Of a stretch of 29,148 nucleotides of DNA, positions 1-17,458 are shown piece after piece. The DNA lies in assembly GCA_016211095.1 (NCBI GenBank), contig JACQSW010000090.1, positions 1 to 29,148 on the forward strand, in the 5' to 3' direction. The stretch's first letter is position 1; each line of letters opens with the position of its first letter. The translations under genes and the position numbers were made by a program. The notes beneath the pieces were generated by a model. That model made no database searches, had not been told where the DNA came from, and saw nothing but the letters and a program-made list of their open reading frames with translations. The stretch comes from Candidatus Woesearchaeota archaeon. Its GTDB lineage: Archaea > Nanobdellota > Nanobdellia > SCGC-AAA011-G17 > GW2011-AR17.

Positions 1-34
1 CTTATTAAGCATATACTTCTTATAGTTTTTAAAG

Positions 35-155
35 AGTGTTAGTGTGGGGCGACTTAGCGACTAATGCCTTCGGGCGTTATAGCAAATTTTCGGATTTGCT
101 CATTCAAACTTGGTCTTCGTATCGATTTTGAACTAAGCCTAGGCGCGCTAACACT
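35..155 (+). ncRNA. Unassigned structured RNA-like element (four-way junction, three UUCG-capped hairpins, long closing stem)
   Basis: Manual folding gives a closing stem 35-46/144-155 (12 bp, 2 G-U) and an inner stem 53-57/133-137. Hairpins are 62-79 (7 bp, cUUCGg), 81-100 (8 bp, UUCG) and 103-132 (11 bp with mismatches, UUCG in loop). Many G-U pairs fix the + orientation. Function and expression are unknown. Confidence 0.6.
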
Positions 156-177
156 TCAAAATTCTTGTAACAAAAAA

Positions 178-210: not shown

Positions 211-2805
211 ATGCGCGCTTTTAATGTTGGTGAAGTTCTAAAAGGATTAGAAACAGATAGTGGTGGGTTAAGCAGCGAAGAGGCAAAAGGTCGGCTAACG
301 AAATATGGTTTTAACGAGTTGCGTGGCGAAAAAAGGGTTTCTCCTCTAAAAATTTTTTTAAGCCAATTCAAAGACCCCCTTATTGTTATTCTTTTTGTAG
401 CAACGCTTGTGTCTGTTTATATAAATGAAGTTGCAGATGCTTTTATCATTGCTGCGATTATTGTTCTTAATGCTGTGGTCGGCTTTTTTCAAGAATTCAA
501 GGCAGAAAGGGCTTTTGAGTTGTTGAAAAAAATGAGTGTGCCGCACTGCATTGTCTTTAGGGATAGAAAAGAAGAGGTTATAGAATCAAGATTTTTAGTG
601 TCAGGCGATATAATCATTTTAGGGGCTGGTAATAAGGCGCCAGCTGATGCCCTGCTAATCGAATCGATGAGTTTAGAGGTTGACGAATCTGCTTTAACAG
701 GCGAATCTATCCCTGTCCAAAAGAGTATAGCCGAGGTAGACGAAGGTACCGCCTTGAGCGAAAGAAGCAACATGATTTTTTCTGGAACAACAATCACGCG
801 TGGCACGGGAAAAGCCGTTGTTGTTTCTACTGGTATGAATACTGAGTTTGGAAAAATAGCCAAGCTTGTGCAAACAATTGAAACAGCAACCACCCCTCTC
901 CAGAAAAAACTTCAAGGATTAGGCAAATGGCTAGGGGCAGTGATCCTGTTTATTTGTTTAATAATATTCGGCCTTGGTATCTTAACCGGTAAGTTTAATT
1001 TTTTTGAGCTATTCATGACTGTCTTAAGTTTAGCTGTTGCTGCTATACCTGAAGGATTGCCAGCAGTAGTGACTATTTGCTTGGCTTTAGGCTTGCGGAG
1101 GATGCTTAACCGTAAAGCTCTTATTCGAAGGCTAAAGGCTGTAGAAACTCTTGGAAGCATTACGGTCATCTGTACCGACAAGACTGGTACTCTGACAAAG
1201 AACGAAATGACTGCTATCCAATTATTTGTAAACAACCAGTACATAGATGTTAGCGGTTCAGGCTATGAAACTAGCGGCGAATTCAAAATCAACAACAAAG
1301 CAATCGATCCGAAACGAGTGAAGTTATTGCTGGAAATTGCAGCTTCTTGCAATGACTCAACATTAGAAATTGGTGACCCCACAGAGAGAGCGCTTGTTGT
1401 ATTGGCAAAGAAGGGGTTTGTTGAGAAGGATGAGGCAAGGATTGGTGGGATCCCCTTTGATTCAGACAAAAAGTATATGGCTACATTTCATAAGAATGGC
1501 TTGGCTTATTTTAAGGGTGCTCCAGAAAAAATCCTTGAAATGTGTGGTTACATACAAATAAACAGTTCTAAACGGCGAATAACTTCAAAAGAAAAAAGTG
1601 CAATCCTAAACGAGAGTGGGGAAATGGCTGCTTCTGCATTAAGGGTATTGGCTTGTGCGTATAGCCATGACAAGAAACTGCGAGACCTGACTTTTGTTGG
1701 TTTGGTTGGAATGATTGATCCACCAAGAGATGAAGCCCAAGAATCAATTGCGTTGTGTGAAAAAGCAGGAATAAGGGCAGTAATGATCACAGGGGATCAT
1801 TTGGTGACAGCGAAAGCGATAGCCAACAGAATTGGCTTAAAAGGCGATGCTATCAATGGAGACGAAATTGATAAGCTAAGCATGCCAGAGATGCAGGAAT
1901 TGGTAAAAAAAGTAACAATATTCGCGAGGGCGTCTTCAACGCATAAAGTCAGAATTCTTTCTGCCTTGCAAAAAAATGAAGAGATTGTGGCGATGACTGG
2001 GGATGGTATTAATGATGCGCCTGCACTAAAAAAAGCAAACGTCGGTGTGGCAATGAACATAAAAGGCACAGATGTTAGCCGGGAAGCTGCAGACATGACT
2101 CTTTTGGATGATAATTTTGCGACGATTGTTTCTGCAATAAGGGAGGGTCGCACAATTTATGACAATATCAAAAAGTTTGTCAAGTTCCTCTTAGCAGCTA
2201 ACCTTGGAGAAGTTTTACTTATCCTTATAGCGATAATTGTTAGCCTCCCTCTTCCGCTTCTGCCAATTCATATTCTTTGGATAAACCTTGTTACTGATAG
2301 TTTGCCTGCGCTTGCTTTAAGTGTGGAGAAGTCGGACCCAAAAATTATGGAGAGAAAGCCTCGGCCGGTTAATGAGAGCATATTCCATAATATAAAATTC
2401 TTTTTGATAGTTGCAGGCTTGTTAACAGCAATGAGCAGCTTAGCAGCGTTCTTGGTTTATTATTGGGATGGCGGGGATATTGTTAAAGCTCGGACGATTG
2501 CGCTCACAACAATAGTTGTATTTGAGTTGCTTCTTGTTTTTGCTTGCAGATCAAAAAAATTAACTTTGGTAGAGTTAGGCTTGTTTTCTAATAGGTATTT
2601 AGTTGGAGCAGTCGCTGTCTCATTCATTGCGCACCTCTTAATAATTTATACTCCGCTAAGCGCATTTTTCAAATTGGCCAGTCTAGGGTTGAATGATTGG
2701 CTGATAGTCTTAGCTTTCGGCGCTAGCGGCTTGTTATTTTTTGAAATAAAAAAGTTTTTCTTTCCAAACAAAGAATTAATTGTGCAGCCTTATGCACGTT
2801 TATAA
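211..2805 (+). CDS. P-type ATPase, P2A (Ca2+-transporting, SERCA/PacL-like), 864 aa
   Basis: Motifs [13 protein letters not shown] (M4), DKTGTLT (phospho-Asp), [29 protein letters not shown] and [14 protein letters not shown] (M6); about 10 hydrophobic segments. Confidence 0.96.
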
Positions 2806-4227
2806 AAAATTCTCCGGGTTTATCTTGCTTGTGATAAGCATTCTTTTAATGTTGTAGTCTATTAATAATTCCGTCTTTTTGTCATTATTCTTTTGCAACT
2901 CCCTCTCTAAATCTATTAAAGCTGAGAAGTCCAATTTTTTGTTAGTGTAAGCTTTTATCGTTGATATTCTGGTATTTTCTAAGTTGCTTATGTTCTCGTT
3001 TGTTGCTTTTATCCTGTTTTCTGCTTCCCTTAAGGCGCTGTATAAGTTTGTTATTTCAAGCTTTATGTTATTCTCTTCTTTTTGCATTTCCAAGGAGATG
3101 ATTATTTGGTCTGATTCTGATTTGGATTGCCTTGCTTCTGTATTTTTATCAAAAAATGGGAGGGGTATGTCTATACCTAATCCGAATTTGTACTCCTCTG
3201 TTTCTGGGTTGAATTTTCCTTCTAGGCCTATTTTTGCGTCACGAGTTGGACCTTTTTTGGCGGCTTTTGCTTCTTTTTGTATTGCTTGTTGGAATGCCCT
3301 TAATTTTTTTAGTTCGAGGCTGTTTTGTATTGAATTTTTGATGCAGTATTCTAAGTCTTGATTGAAAGGCAAATATTCTGGTGATGCAGTTATGCTAATT
3401 TCGGTGGTTAGTGCTAATCCTAAAAGGCTTTTGAGATTGTTAAGGATTCTTTCATAGTTGTTTTGCCTATTGTTAAGTGCGTCCTGCGCTGAGGATAGCT
3501 CTGTCGCTGCCCTCATCAAATCTGCCTCGAAGTTTGTTGTTTTTTTAATGATAGAATCATCTTCTTTTATGTTTAAGACGTAACTCTTTTGGTTGCCAAC
3601 GAAGGCGGTTATTTTTAGGACTTCGTAATAGTTTTGGGTTACAAATAGTTTAACGTCCCTAACGGCCTGTTCGTAGGTTATTTCTGCCGCTTCAAGCGTT
3701 GCATCTGCTATTGCCTGCTTTGCCTTTTCGTTAGCAGGAGTGGTGGATAGGTATGGGGTGGGGAAGCTAAATTTTAAGATTAGTTCGGGTTCAAATGTGC
3801 GAAATTGATTGTTTTCTGTAGAAGGTTTTTCTATTAATTCTTCTTTTCTTGTTTCCCGGATTATCCATTCGAGTTCCACTGCGTTTTTGAATTTTTGTTT
3901 TAGGTAGAGGTCTATGTTTGATTCTATTTTTGATTCTTCTTTGTCGTTATCGCCAGTTAAATCTTCTTTTCCTGTGTGGAGGTAGTTTGTTTTAAACCTT
4001 AACCCTACTTGTGGGGCATAATTTGCGTCGAACAAGTTTTTTTCTGCCTTAGCAAGGTTTAGCCTTTCGTTGGCTTGCTGTAATAACAAACTTTCGTGGA
4101 GAGCTAAGTCTAAGGTTGTTGTTTGATCTAATTTTAATGGTTGTGAGCCATTTGAGTAGGTTAATGTGGGGATTAGCAGAGAAGTTGTTGTTATAATTGC
4201 TGCAATTTTTTTAATTCGTTCCTTCAT
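2800..4227 (-). CDS. TolC/OEP-family outer-membrane efflux channel-like protein, 475 aa
   Basis: N-terminal signal-like peptide and two OEP-like repeats: LDLALHES...AKAEKNLFDANYAPQVGL; VKLFVTQNYYEVL; DLMRA...LKSLLGL; CIKNSIQNSLEL; GLGIDIPLPFFD; KAYTNKKLDFSALIDLEREL...DY. Confidence 0.8.
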   Translation of the reverse strand: MKERIKKIAAIITTTSLLIPTLTYSNGSQPLKLDQTTTLDLALHESLLLQQANERLNLAKAEKNLFDANYAPQVGLRFKTNYLHTGKEDLTGDNDKEESKIESNIDLYLKQKFKNAVELEWIIRETRKEELIEKPSTENNQFRTFEPELILKFSFPTPYLSTTPANEKAKQAIADATLEAAEITYEQAVRDVKLFVTQNYYEVLKITAFVGNQKSYVLNIKEDDSIIKKTTNFEADLMRAATELSSAQDALNNRQNNYERILNNLKSLLGLALTTEISITASPEYLPFNQDLEYCIKNSIQNSLELKKLRAFQQAIQKEAKAAKKGPTRDAKIGLEGKFNPETEEYKFGLGIDIPLPFFDKNTEARQSKSESDQIIISLEMQKEENNIKLEITNLYSALREAENRIKATNENISNLENTRISTIKAYTNKKLDFSALIDLERELQKNNDKKTELLIDYNIKRMLITSKINPENFL

Positions 4228-4918: not shown

Positions 4919-6535
4919 TTGAGTATCGTTAATTATTCGAAAGATGAAAAAACTGTTTTGGAACATTTCTTCTCAAACATTGACAAAAATGTCTATTTTG
5001 TGAAAAATTTGCCTGAGGAAGTGTGGGCAACGCTCAAAGGCTCTTACAGCAGGGAACATCTTTCTATGCGTGACAACTTCTTAAAAAAGATGAAAGAAGG
5101 GGGAGCAGACATCAAAGCCTTGGCTGAAGCTATCCGCATAACAAAAGAAGGAACTTCGTTGCAGAGGATAAAATCAAAAATCACCAGAAAACCGGTTGAG
5201 CAGTTAAGCCTTGAATATCTAATAAGCAAGGCGGGAAAGTTTTTGGAGACATGGGCGGTCAAGTATGGGCATAACTCGCTGAAGGAGGGTGCAGTCGCCA
5301 AAATTGCAGTTGAAGACGTTTCAATAATCTTAACTAAAATTATCGAGGATAATAGGTTAGCTTCTTACATAGAAAAATCAACTCGGTATTTGGATTTTAC
5401 AAAGAGCAGCCTCTTCTATGATTCAACATTAATAAGCTCGCATCACTCAAGGAGAGTTGAGGATAATGGAAACATGCTGATGGAGACTTACACAGAAATA
5501 CTCGAAAAACTTACGCCATTTGTTATTAAAAAAAGAGATGCGCTTAAGCCAGAAAAAGAAAAAATGAAAGCGTGGGAGAATGCTTGTAGGGCCGAGGCAT
5601 TCGACTCAGCGAGGTACGTGCTACCCGCGTGTGTCAAAACAAGTTTGGGATGGACTGTGAACGCTAGGGAACTAGAGCACGCAATCACTAAACTTTTATC
5701 AAGCGAGCTTGAAGAGGCGAAAAAGATAGGGGCGCTGCTTAAGGATGAAGGGACAAAAATTTTTCCAACACTCATAAGGCATGCAAAAGAATCTGAATAC
5801 TTAAAAGAAACAAACAAATCAATGAATAATTTATCCAAAAATTTGTTAAAAGATGATCCAAAAGAAGCAAATTTTGTTTCATTAGTTCACTCCGATGAAG
5901 GCTTAGAAGACAAACTGGTGGCTGCAATACTTTACAAATACTCCCAACAACCTTACTCACAAATATTTAAGCAGGTAAAAATTTTTTCTGAAAAACAAAA
6001 AAACGAAGTTTTCGAAGAATATTTGAAAAGGCGCAGCAACCATGAAGCCATGCTTAGGGGGATGGAAGCGGGGGAATTTGTTTTCGACATCCTAATTGAT
6101 TTTGGAGCTTTCAGGGATATACAGCGGCATAGGATTGGAACGCAGATACCCCAAACATTAACCACCTTTCACGGCTACACAACGCCTGAGTTAATAGTTG
6201 AGGCAGGCTTGGAAAAAAAGTTTCGAACAGCAATGGAAGAATCTGCCAAGAACCACCAACTAGTCTACAAAGATTATCCTGAACAAGCTCAGTATATGGT
6301 TCCGTTAGCATTCAAAAAACGGGTTTACCTAAAGTTTAATCCGAGGCAAACAGCATATTTCATTGAACTCAGGTCAGGGGAGCAGGGCCACGTATCTTAC
6401 CGAAAGCTTGCAATAATGATGCATCAGATTATAGAAGAAAAATACCCAAACTTTGCTAAATTCATAAAAGTCAACAAGAACAATATTGATATGCCGAGAT
6501 TAAATGCGGAACTAAAAGCTTTGAACAAGAAATAA
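4919..6535 (+). CDS. thyX: FAD-dependent thymidylate synthase ThyX, tandem two-domain form, 538 aa
   Basis: EKSTRY (SxRY) and ARYVLP..T..G.T.NARELEH in domain 1; DIQRHR and YFIELRS in domain 2. TTG start with a GGGGG SD. Confidence 0.88.
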   Translation: MSIVNYSKDEKTVLEHFFSNIDKNVYFVKNLPEEVWATLKGSYSREHLSMRDNFLKKMKEGGADIKALAEAIRITKEGTSLQRIKSKITRKPVEQLSLEYLISKAGKFLETWAVKYGHNSLKEGAVAKIAVEDVSIILTKIIEDNRLASYIEKSTRYLDFTKSSLFYDSTLISSHHSRRVEDNGNMLMETYTEILEKLTPFVIKKRDALKPEKEKMKAWENACRAEAFDSARYVLPACVKTSLGWTVNARELEHAITKLLSSELEEAKKIGALLKDEGTKIFPTLIRHAKESEYLKETNKSMNNLSKNLLKDDPKEANFVSLVHSDEGLEDKLVAAILYKYSQQPYSQIFKQVKIFSEKQKNEVFEEYLKRRSNHEAMLRGMEAGEFVFDILIDFGAFRDIQRHRIGTQIPQTLTTFHGYTTPELIVEAGLEKKFRTAMEESAKNHQLVYKDYPEQAQYMVPLAFKKRVYLKFNPRQTAYFIELRSGEQGHVSYRKLAIMMHQIIEEKYPNFAKFIKVNKNNIDMPRLNAELKALNKK

Positions 6536-17251: not shown

Positions 17252-17374
17252 AGGACCGGACGGGATTTGAACCCGCGACCACCTGATATCTTCTTTTTTT
17301 GAAGTTAAAAGTTTCACCTTAACAACTTTTTTTTCGTTGTTAACAGGTGCTCTACCAGGCTGAGCTACCGGTCC
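17252..17374 (-). tRNA. tRNA-Lys(TTT) with two introns: 31 nt at 30/31 (17313-17343) and 18 nt at 37/38 (17288-17305)
   Basis: Exons join to GGACCGG TA GCTC AGCCTGGTA GAGC A CCTGA CTTTTAA TCAGG TGGTC GCGGG TTCAAAT CCCGT CCGGTCC, a complete cloverleaf. Both introns show a BHB-type central helix (CACC/GGTG; CTTT/GAAG). No encoded CCA. Confidence 0.88.
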
Positions 17375-17384
17375 GCGTTTGAAA

Positions 17385-17458
17385 CGCCCTGACCGGGATT
17401 CGAACCCGGGTCGTAGCCTCGACAGGGCTACATGATAGGCCAGCTACACCATCAGGGC
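17385..17458 (-). tRNA. tRNA-Asp(GTC), intronless
   Basis: GCCCTGA/TCAGGGC acceptor stem, TAGCC-CTGTCGA-GGCTA anticodon arm, CCGGG-TTCGAAT-CCCGG T arm, discriminator G. Confidence 0.96.

What the first reader, a model, noticed from the sequence alone, without database searches (positions are those of the whole stretch)
35..155. Unrecognised 121-nt four-way-junction RNA with three UUCG-capped arms
Seen: every segment from 35 to 155 pairs. A 12-bp closing stem (35-46/144-155) and a 5-bp inner stem (53-57/133-137) enclose three hairpins (62-79, 81-100, 103-132), each with TTCG in its loop. Six or more G-U pairs would be mismatches on the other strand, so the structure looks selected as + strand RNA rather than as a DNA palindrome. 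A TATA-like TTATTAAG at 2-9 would start a transcript near 33-35. The ATPase has its own TATA (178-185), so the element looks independent of that mRNA. I cannot match it to tRNA, 5S, SRP, RNase P, C/D sRNA or a riboswitch I know. Inference: a novel ncRNA, or a non-autonomous mobile or REP-like element.
Basis: partly seen in the sequence, partly recalled or inferred. Interest (0 to 1): 0.82.

Follow-up and report, generated by a model that had tools for sequence, protein, structure and literature searches.

The report
Splicing-motif-flanked small RNA, probably circular
A small stand-alone RNA gene in an uncultured Woesearchaeota-type archaeon folds so that its two ends form the exact motif cut by the archaeal tRNA-splicing enzyme, so its real product is probably a very stable 90-nucleotide RNA circle of unknown function.

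Summary
The structure at 35-155 is real: -41.6 kcal/mol, z = -3.9, and much weaker on the other strand. It matches no Rfam family and is single-copy in this genome.

[quoted passage not shown] The 3-nt bulges are 51-53 and 141-143, and the inner helix is 54-57/133-136. The handedness matches bona fide tRNA introns of the same genome.

Homologues exist in only two other genomes of the 240 held for the order: two loci in G004 and one in G040. All keep the BHB core, a covarying clamp helix, UUCG-capped hairpins, and a TATA box 27-29 nt upstream. The neighbouring genes are unrelated, and the number of inner hairpins varies (2-3).

EndA and RtcB are encoded in the two genomes checked (G000, G004). 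Canonical RNase P RNA is present in G000. G004 also has canonical 5S and SRP RNA, so the element is none of these.

Best reading: an independent ncRNA gene whose transcript is cut at 52|53 and 142|143 and ligated into a 90-nt four-arm circle. Cleavage, circularity and function are inferred, not shown.

The parts
2..9 (+). TATA-like box (TTATTAAG) of the element's own promoter; the BRE is lost at the contig end
   Evidence: Read from the sequence. The box centre lies 27-29 nt before the first paired base, as in G004-C19, G004-C11 and G040. tRNA genes of this genome carry A-rich + TTTATAAA boxes at a similar distance. Inferred, not mapped.
34..46 (+). Outer clamp helix h, 5' strand (pairs with 144-156)
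   Evidence: MFE. Two double and two single compensatory changes against G004. 8-13 bp in G000, G004-C19 and G040, and 5 bp in G004-C11.
47..50 (+). Central 4-bp helix H of the BHB, 5' strand (GGGC), pairs with 137-140
   Evidence: MFE. Conserved as GGGC/GGGC/GGGU/AGGC with matching partners GCCU/GCCU/GCCC/GCCU.
51..53 (+). 5' three-nucleotide bulge (GAC); predicted EndA cut between 52 and 53
   Evidence: MFE. The cut position follows the tRNA-Gly/Leu introns of the same genome, which are cut after the second bulge base. Inferred.
54..57 (+). Inner helix h', 5' strand (UUAG), pairs with 133-136
   Evidence: MFE. Conserved with one U-A to U-G change in G040 and co-deletion of one A-U pair in G004-C11.
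62..79 (+). Hairpin 1, 7 bp, cUUCGg loop
   Evidence: MFE. Two pairs with double changes against G004.
81..100 (+). Hairpin 2, 8 bp, UUCG loop; its apex AAUUUUCGGAUUU is the most conserved inner sequence
   Evidence: MFE. The AAUYUUCGGAUUU apex recurs in G004 (3 copies) and G005 (2 copies), and as GAUCUUCGGAUUU in G040.
103..132 (+). Hairpin 3, 6 bp + 1x1 mismatch + 5 bp, CUUCGU loop
   Evidence: MFE. G004 has the same layout, with two double changes.
133..136 (+). Inner helix h', 3' strand (CUAA)
   Evidence: MFE.
137..140 (+). Central helix H, 3' strand (GCCU)
   Evidence: MFE.
141..143 (+). 3' three-nucleotide bulge (AGG); predicted EndA cut between 142 and 143
   Evidence: MFE. AGG/AGG/AGA/AGA in the four loci. 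The cut site is inferred.
144..156 (+). Outer clamp helix h, 3' strand
   Evidence: MFE.
53..142 (+). Predicted excised piece, 90 nt, probably ligated into a four-arm circle
   Evidence: A circular fold gives three capped arms plus a junction hairpin CUAAGC-CUA-GCUUAG. EndA and RtcB genes are present. Not shown experimentally.

Best explanation
Positions about 33-156 are an independent small RNA gene. Transcription starts about 25 nt after the TATA-like box at 2-9. Three hairpins nucleated by UUCG loops fold first and pull the 5' and 3' ends together. A 12-13-bp clamp helix then presents a canonical hBHBh' motif. The tRNA-splicing endonuclease EndA cuts after the second base of each bulge (52|53 and 142|143). 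RtcB joins the ends of the 90-nt inner piece into a covalently closed four-arm RNA. The two short flanks are either ligated into a 12-bp hairpin or degraded. Shown here: the fold, its strand, its conservation with covariation, the BHB geometry, the enzymes' genes, and independence from the neighbouring gene. Inferred: transcription start, cleavage, ligation, and that the circle is the functional product. My best guess at the circle's role is a nuclease-resistant trans-acting RNA whose conserved AUCUUCGGAU hairpin or junction hairpin is a binding site. That role is unknown.
For: The fold is stable: z = -3.94 on + against -2.18 on -. For G004 the values are -130.7 (z -15) on + against -97.3 on -.

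A strict 3-4-3 BHB appears in the MFE of the element but in 0 of 3000 dinucleotide shuffles. The handedness and cut rule match tRNA-Gly(CCC), Leu(GAG) and Leu(UAG) introns of the same genome.

CM searches found homologues at G004:C19 (49.5 bits), G004:C11 (70 bits) and G040:C11 (34 bits). All keep the core rGGy-rAC-UUrG ... CyrA-GCCy-AGr with pairing-preserving changes, and a clamp helix of different sequence. On the G000/G004 alignment, 42 pairs are 100% paired. Six pairs changed on both sides, and slid controls are 25-46% paired.

G004-C11 lost all its UUCG loops but kept every helix (z -11.5). G004 carries a second, one-hairpin BHB-like module upstream. Its predicted 52-nt circle closes into a second cUUCGg cap, giving a perfect dumbbell.

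EndA and RtcB are present in G000 and G004. Downstream genes differ: P-type ATPase, MetK, Pop5 and another ORF, each with its own TATA box. A T7 tract follows the clamp in G040.

BHB-flanked RNAs are cut by EndA and circularised in archaea (PMC7714728, PMC12558985).
Against: There are no expression, cleavage or junction data.

A genome-wide sequence scan shows that the bare motif is not significant alone. The element has the most stable strict BHB in G000 (-24.1 kcal/mol, next -20.2). However, four Markov-simulated genomes gave best values of -16.8, -20.4, -23.9 and -23.1.

The neat closure of the circle junction in the main module is not distinctive, because 2 of 3 tRNA introns of this genome allow the same.

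In G004-C19 the MFE shifts the 3' bulge by one U-A pair, giving a 5-bp H.

Only three lineages are known, so covariation statistics are thin. All four loci point the same way as the next gene, and terminators are weak in G000 and G004-C19, so read-through cannot be excluded.
Confidence: 0.55

Rival explanations
1. A linear structured ncRNA. The BHB-like internal loops are only part of its architecture, or a protein-binding site, and are not cut.
For: The bare motif can arise by chance at genome scale. The BHB core is more conserved in sequence than EndA recognition is known to need, which could point to another binding partner.
Against: The exact 3-4-3 geometry and handedness are kept in four loci of three genera while the clamp and inner hairpins change. 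It occurs in 0 of 3000 shuffles. The genome demonstrably uses this geometry for tRNA introns.
Confidence: 0.2
2. A BHB intron in a long 5' leader of the downstream mRNA, like the HVO_1309 5' UTR intron of Haloferax. Its removal would tune expression of the next gene.
For: All four loci lie upstream of, and co-oriented with, a gene. No clear oligo-T terminator follows the clamp in G000 or G004-C19. A precedent exists in PMC7714728.
Against: The downstream genes are unrelated. Each has its own A-rich/TATA box about 25 nt before its start codon, which implies leaderless mRNAs. G040 has a T7 tract directly after the clamp. The exon parts are not conserved beyond pairing.
Confidence: 0.12
3. A selfish, intron-like or non-autonomous mobile element (or its relic) that persists because it is harmlessly spliced out.
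For: The distribution is patchy: 3 of 240 genomes of the order. G004 has two diverged loci with duplicated modules. Three of five occurrences touch contig ends.
Against: It is single-copy in G000. I saw no target-site duplications or terminal repeats in the flanks. There is no associated homing endonuclease or transposase. Each copy carries its own promoter at a fixed distance. No related hit was found in viral contigs.
Confidence: 0.08
4. A divergent copy of a known RNA (5S rRNA, tRNA, SRP RNA, RNase P RNA, riboswitch) or a DNA-level cruciform.
For: The length of about 120 nt is like 5S. The element lies upstream of a cation ATPase.
Against: No Rfam hit was found even at E <= 10. G004 has the element as well as canonical 5S (82 bits), RNase P RNA, SRP RNA and an rRNA operon. 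G000 has canonical RNase P RNA. The G004 rRNA processing stems are unrelated in sequence. As single-stranded DNA the same strand gives -19.3 kcal/mol, z -2.9, and the seven G-U pairs are mismatches on the other strand.
Confidence: 0.03

Closest known systems
Excised archaeal tRNA introns and tRNA-intronic circular RNAs (BHB cut by EndA, ends joined by RtcB)
   Same: The hBHBh' geometry and handedness are identical to tRNA-Gly/Leu introns of the same genome. The size range is similar, and the enzymes are encoded.
   Different: There is no host tRNA: the flanks are only a clamp helix with no tRNA features. The element has its own promoter, a far longer outer helix (12-13 bp against 5-7) and a hyper-stable UUCG-capped interior.
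BHB-dependent circularisation of functional ncRNAs: permuted SRP RNA of Thermoproteus (PMC4731332), circular pre-16S/23S rRNA, permuted 23S of Thermococcales (PMC7758197)
   Same: A stand-alone transcript whose ends form a processing stem with a BHB, so that the inner RNA is released and ligated.
   Different: The inner RNA is not a recognisable known RNA. Canonical 5S, SRP and RNase P RNAs exist elsewhere in G004, and the G004 rRNA processing stems share no sequence with it.
BHB intron in the 5' UTR of Haloferax HVO_1309 and in crenarchaeal cbf5 mRNA (PMC7714728)
   Same: A BHB outside tRNA/rRNA, located upstream of a protein-coding gene.
   Different: Here the downstream genes are unrelated and have their own promoters. 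The element itself, not the host transcript, is what is conserved.
Engineered circRNA cassettes that use a pre-tRNA/BHB scaffold (for example bioRxiv 10.64898/2026.10.12.758436)
   Same: The layout is promoter, clamp, BHB, then a stable payload.
   Different: This one is natural and the function of its payload is unknown. The likeness rests only on that preprint's title and abstract as listed.

Membership tests
Substrates of the archaeal splicing endonuclease (BHB motif) | Two 3-nt bulges on opposite strands separated by a 4-bp helix (definition in PMC7714728, PMC5829648) | tested here: met
   The MFE has GAC 51-53 and AGG 141-143 around 47-50/137-140. No such motif occurs in 0 of 3000 shuffles.
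Substrates of the archaeal splicing endonuclease (BHB motif) | Flanking helices h and h', with the same handedness as bona fide introns | tested here: met
   h is 12-13 bp and h' is 4 bp. The bulges lie 3' of H on both strands, as in tRNA-Gly(CCC), Leu(GAG) and Leu(UAG) of G000.
Substrates of the archaeal splicing endonuclease (BHB motif) | Motif conserved in homologues | tested here: met
   It is kept in G004-C19, G004-C11 and G040 with pairing-preserving changes. In G004-C19 the MFE register is ambiguous by one U-A pair.
Substrates of the archaeal splicing endonuclease (BHB motif) | EndA and an RNA ligase encoded by the organism | tested here: met
   PF01974 scores 100.9 bits in G000 and 103.6 in G004. 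PF01139 RtcB is present in both, and in G000 it lies in two pieces on two contigs.
Substrates of the archaeal splicing endonuclease (BHB motif) | Actual cleavage at the bulges and a circular junction | not testable with these tools
   No transcriptome or biochemical data are available.
Substrates of the archaeal splicing endonuclease (BHB motif) | Motif rarer than chance in the genome | tested here: inconclusive
   It is the best strict BHB in G000 (-24.1), but simulated genomes reach -23.9 and -23.1.
tRNA intron / tricRNA | Exons that form a tRNA | tested here: not met
   Neither Rfam tRNA nor ARAGORN hits 1-260. The ligated flanks would be only a 12-bp hairpin with a 7-nt loop.
5S rRNA (RF00001) | Match to the covariance model, being the only 5S-like RNA in the lineage | tested here: not met
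   There is no hit at E <= 10. G004 has a canonical 117-nt 5S as well as the element.
Cis-regulatory leader / riboswitch of the ATPase | Conserved association with the regulated gene family | tested here: not met
   The downstream genes are a P-type ATPase, MetK, Pop5 and another ORF. No riboswitch family was hit.
REP / MITE-like dispersed repeat | Many copies per genome | tested here: not met
   BLAST and CM searches find one copy in G000, two loci in G004 and one in G040.
Permuted known ncRNA restored by circularisation (Thermoproteus SRP type) | The circle corresponds to a known RNA that is otherwise missing | tested here: not met
   Canonical RNase P RNA is present in G000, G004 and G005, and SRP RNA in G004 and G005. 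The linker and loop pattern does not fit a tRNA cloverleaf (my reading).

The most novel reading that the evidence does not exclude
A few Woesearchaeota-type lineages carry dedicated genes that work as natural circular-RNA cassettes: own promoter, long clamp, canonical BHB, and a payload of UUCG-capped helices. In G004 they would yield a 52-nt double-capped dumbbell and a 109-nt cruciform. That would be a class of very small, hyper-stable, trans-acting circular RNAs made by the tRNA-splicing machinery, with no tRNA, rRNA or mRNA host.
Probability: 0.4. Interest if true: 0.78.

Novelty: new variant of a known kind. Interest (0 to 1): 0.62.

Why it matters
The substrates of the archaeal splicing endonuclease named in the papers consulted are tRNAs, rRNA precursors, a permuted SRP RNA and two mRNA cases.

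A stand-alone gene whose only conserved content is the BHB plus a hyper-stable payload would add a new substrate class. It would also give DPANN archaea, whose RNA biology is almost unexplored, a candidate regulatory or structural circular RNA.

It is directly testable with one divergent-primer RT-PCR or one in vitro EndA assay. It also offers a compact natural scaffold for making small circular RNAs.

Tried and rejected
- **Rfam.** The search at gathering thresholds over the whole window, and at E <= 10 on 1-260, gave only a chance lncRNA fragment.
- **BLAST.** Searching 1-210 in 40 relatives gave only AT-rich noise.
- **5S hypothesis.** Rejected, because relatives including G004 have canonical 5S.
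- **RNase P RNA idea.** Prompted by Pop5 lying next to the G004-C11 copy. Rejected, because canonical RNase P RNA is present in all three genomes checked.
- **Relic of an rRNA processing stem.** Rejected, because the G004 16S and 23S stems are unrelated in sequence.
- **Permuted or disrupted tRNA.** Rejected: the loops are tetraloops, the linker order does not fit, and the spliced flanks have no tRNA features.
- **Exact-protein lookup of the ATPase** for longer contigs found nothing on record.
- **Synteny through MscS/MetK** was not informative.
- **Metagenome pattern scan.** It gave one near-identical copy of the G004 locus (L056) and two chance matches, L055 and L057.
- **Viral contigs.** One chance match inside coding sequence.
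- **AATYTTCGGATTT hairpin motif in the family.** 18 hits against 5 control hits, but outside G000, G004 and G005 these are isolated hairpins.
- **G005:C58 candidate** (15 bits, cut by the contig end, 2-nt/3-nt bulges) is left as unproven.
- **Sliding-window MFE scan of G000** found no second element of this kind.
- **Junction closure of the main circle** as evidence for circularity was dropped after the tRNA-intron baseline.
- **Genome-wide BHB significance** failed against simulated genomes.

Full report
**Setting.** The window is contig C64 of a 0.93-Mb, 85%-complete archaeal MAG. A member of the same GTDB family, G004, is labelled Candidatus Woesearchaeota archaeon Meg22_1618_Bin_98. The element starts 34-35 nt from the contig end, so nothing upstream of position 1 is known.

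- The + strand of 35-155 folds to -41.6 kcal/mol (z = -3.94, 0 of 200 shuffles as good). The other strand reaches only -29.3 (z = -2.18).
- As single-stranded DNA the + strand gives -19.3 (z = -2.9).
I count seven G-U pairs.
- No Rfam family matches at gathering thresholds or at E <= 10. ARAGORN finds nothing there.
- The element is single-copy in the genome by BLAST and by covariance model.

  - Outer helix: 35-46/144-155.
  - 4-bp helix: GGGC 47-50 / GCCU 137-140.
  - 3-nt bulges on opposite strands: GAC 51-53 and AGG 141-143.
  - Inner helix: UUAG 54-57 / CUAA 133-136.
- This is the published definition of the motif cut by the archaeal splicing endonuclease (PMC7714728, PMC5829648).
- I checked the handedness against introns of the same genome. 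In tRNA-Gly(CCC), Leu(GAG) and Leu(UAG) the bulges also lie 3' of the central helix on both strands. The ARAGORN intron boundaries imply cutting after the second bulge base.
- Applied here, that rule predicts cuts at 52|53 and 142|143 and a 90-nt excised piece.

**Is the BHB more than chance?** The answer is mixed, and I report both sides.
- None of 3000 dinucleotide shuffles of the element has a strict BHB anywhere in its MFE.
- In a sequence scan of the whole genome, this is the most stable strict BHB with an excised part under 160 nt: -24.1 kcal/mol, next -20.2.
- Four Markov-simulated genomes gave about as many raw hits, with best energies of -16.8, -20.4, -23.9 and -23.1. A motif this good could therefore arise about once per genome by chance.
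- The decisive evidence is conservation, not the motif count.

**Homologues.**
- BLAST found nothing in 40 relatives.
- A single-sequence covariance model found G004:C19:19934-20072 at 49.5 bits.
- A two-lineage model then found a second G004 locus (C11:29310-29439, 70 bits) and G040:C11:2811-2903 in another family of the order (34 bits, E 5e-6).
- A relaxed core pattern over all 240 genomes held for the order hits only G000, G004 and G040, with no control hits.
- The exact core with a 70-100-nt gap occurs in only G004 among the 185,579 species representatives.
- One metagenome contig (L056) is a near-identical copy of the G004 locus. Its one visible difference in hairpin 1 turns a U-G pair into U-A.

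**What is conserved.**
- The four loci share the core rGGy-rAC-UUrG ... CyrA-GCCy-AGr.
  - Its changes keep pairing: G-U to G-C or A-U, C-G to U-G, and U-A to U-G.
  - In G004-C11 one A-U pair of the inner helix is deleted on both strands.
- The clamp helix differs in sequence and length: 13, 10, 5 and 8 bp.
- The interior holds 3, 3, 3 or 2 hairpins, and the excised length would be 90, 109, 105 or 66 nt.
- On the G000/G004 alignment, all 42 tested pairs are paired in every sequence. Six pairs changed on both sides and eight on one side. Slid controls are 25-46% paired.
- The folds are far better than shuffles: G004-C19 z = -15, G004-C11 z = -11.5, G040 z = -4.6.
- G004-C11 has lost every UUCG loop but kept every helix.
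- The most conserved inner sequence is the hairpin apex AUYUUCGGAUUU.
- In G004-C19 the MFE slides the 3' bulge by one U-A pair. The canonical register is available but not uniquely favoured.

**A second module in G004.** Both G004 loci carry an upstream module.
- It has a 10-bp clamp, a GAAG/CUUC helix, bulges AC(U) and GGA, and one 21-bp UUCG hairpin.
- If cut by the same rule and ligated, the junction reads A-C(UUCG)G-U. The 52-nt circle would then be a perfect double-stranded rod capped by cUUCGg at both ends.
- This looks purpose-built for circularisation, but it is a post hoc observation.
- For the main module, the junction would close as CUAAGC-CUA-GCUUAG. Two of three tRNA introns of this genome allow a similar closure, so I give that no weight.

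**Independence from neighbours.**
- The genes downstream are a P-type ATPase (G000), MetK (G004-C19), RNase P subunit Pop5 followed by proteasome alpha (G004-C11), and another ORF in G040.
- Each has its own A-rich/TATA box about 25 nt before its start codon, which suggests leaderless mRNAs.
- In all four loci a TATA-like box sits 27-29 nt (centre) before the first paired base of the first clamp. tRNA genes of G000 carry similar boxes at a similar distance.
- G040 has a T7 tract immediately after the clamp, and G004-C11 a T-rich run. G000 and G004-C19 do not.
- All loci are co-oriented with the next gene, so read-through into it cannot be excluded.

**Not a known RNA.**
- G004 has a canonical 5S (82 bits), RNase P RNA, SRP RNA and a 16S-23S operon in addition to the element.
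- G000 has canonical RNase P RNA. Its rRNAs and SRP RNA are simply not assembled.
- The G004 rRNA processing stems share no sequence with the element.
- The ligated flanks have no tRNA features.

**Machinery.** EndA (one gene, 179-213-aa frame, so alpha4-like) and RtcB are encoded in G000 and G004. ARAGORN predicts introns in about half of the G000 tRNA genes it detects.

**Mechanism and confidence.**
- I consider it very likely (about 0.9) that this is a genuine, selected + strand structured RNA with its own promoter.
- I consider it more likely than not (about 0.55) that it is cut at the BHB and the 90-nt piece circularised.
- The function of the product is unknown. The conserved parts that would remain in the circle are the junction hairpin and the AUCUUCGGAU hairpin, which I propose as binding sites.
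- Rivals, in order: an uncut linear ncRNA, a 5' leader intron of the downstream mRNA, and a selfish intron-like element.

**Novelty.** Processing at a BHB and circularisation are known for tRNA introns, rRNA precursors, a permuted SRP RNA and two mRNAs (PMC7714728, PMC4731332, PMC7758197, PMC12558985). I found no description of a stand-alone gene whose conserved content is just clamp, BHB and UUCG-capped payload. I therefore rate it a new variant of a known kind. Its known distribution is very narrow: three genera of uncultured archaea.

Noticed in passing
window 17252-17374 (-) and 17385-17458 (-): Two adjacent tRNA genes. The first carries an intron of about 51 nt; ARAGORN calls it Ile(AAT) with the intron at position 35. 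My strict BHB scan found no canonical motif at the predicted boundaries, so the anticodon and intron limits are uncertain.
   Followed up: partly
window 2800-4227 (-): A 475-aa ORF with a TolC-like outer-membrane efflux protein domain (PF02321, 75 bits) lies convergent with the P-type ATPase. This is an unusual family for an archaeon.
   Followed up: no
window 4919-6535 (+): A 538-aa ThyX-like protein with two matched Thy1 stretches, about twice the usual length.
   Followed up: no
G000:C36:7660-8385 (-) and G000:C81:9242-9391 (+): RtcB appears in two pieces on different contigs. Profile positions 186-426 lie inside a 645-aa open frame, and positions 1-48 lie elsewhere. This suggests an intein, a split gene or an assembly break.
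   Followed up: no
G000:C33:758-1348 (-): ARAGORN predicts tRNA-Asn(GTT) with a 515-nt intron, far longer than the other introns of this genome.
   Followed up: no
G000:C12:41-240: An AT-rich intergenic stretch packed with nested palindromes (GTCGACATGTCGAC, repeated GTCTAC/GTAGAC). It folds to -67.5 kcal/mol and is also strongly structured on the other strand. It may be a DNA-level element such as an origin or binding-site array.
   Followed up: no
L096 about 3020-3130 (G004:C10 16S-23S spacer): The spacer tRNA-Ala appears interrupted by an insertion of roughly 30 nt (AAUAAGUUUAGCGUUGCUAAACUUAUUGA, boundaries not mapped) in the T-arm region. That would be a non-canonical intron position. Read from the sequence only.
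   Followed up: no
L066 1501-1615 (G005:C58:3209-3323, contig end): A possible distant relative. A TATA box is followed by a GAUG/GUGG clamp with 2-nt and 3-nt bulges and two AAUCUUCGGAUUU hairpins. It is cut off by the contig end and scores only 15 bits with model R2.
   Followed up: partly
window 1-35; L056 end; L066 end: Three of the five occurrences of this RNA family lie within about 60 nt of a contig end. Such loci may break assemblies, through paralogous modules or strain variation.
   Followed up: no
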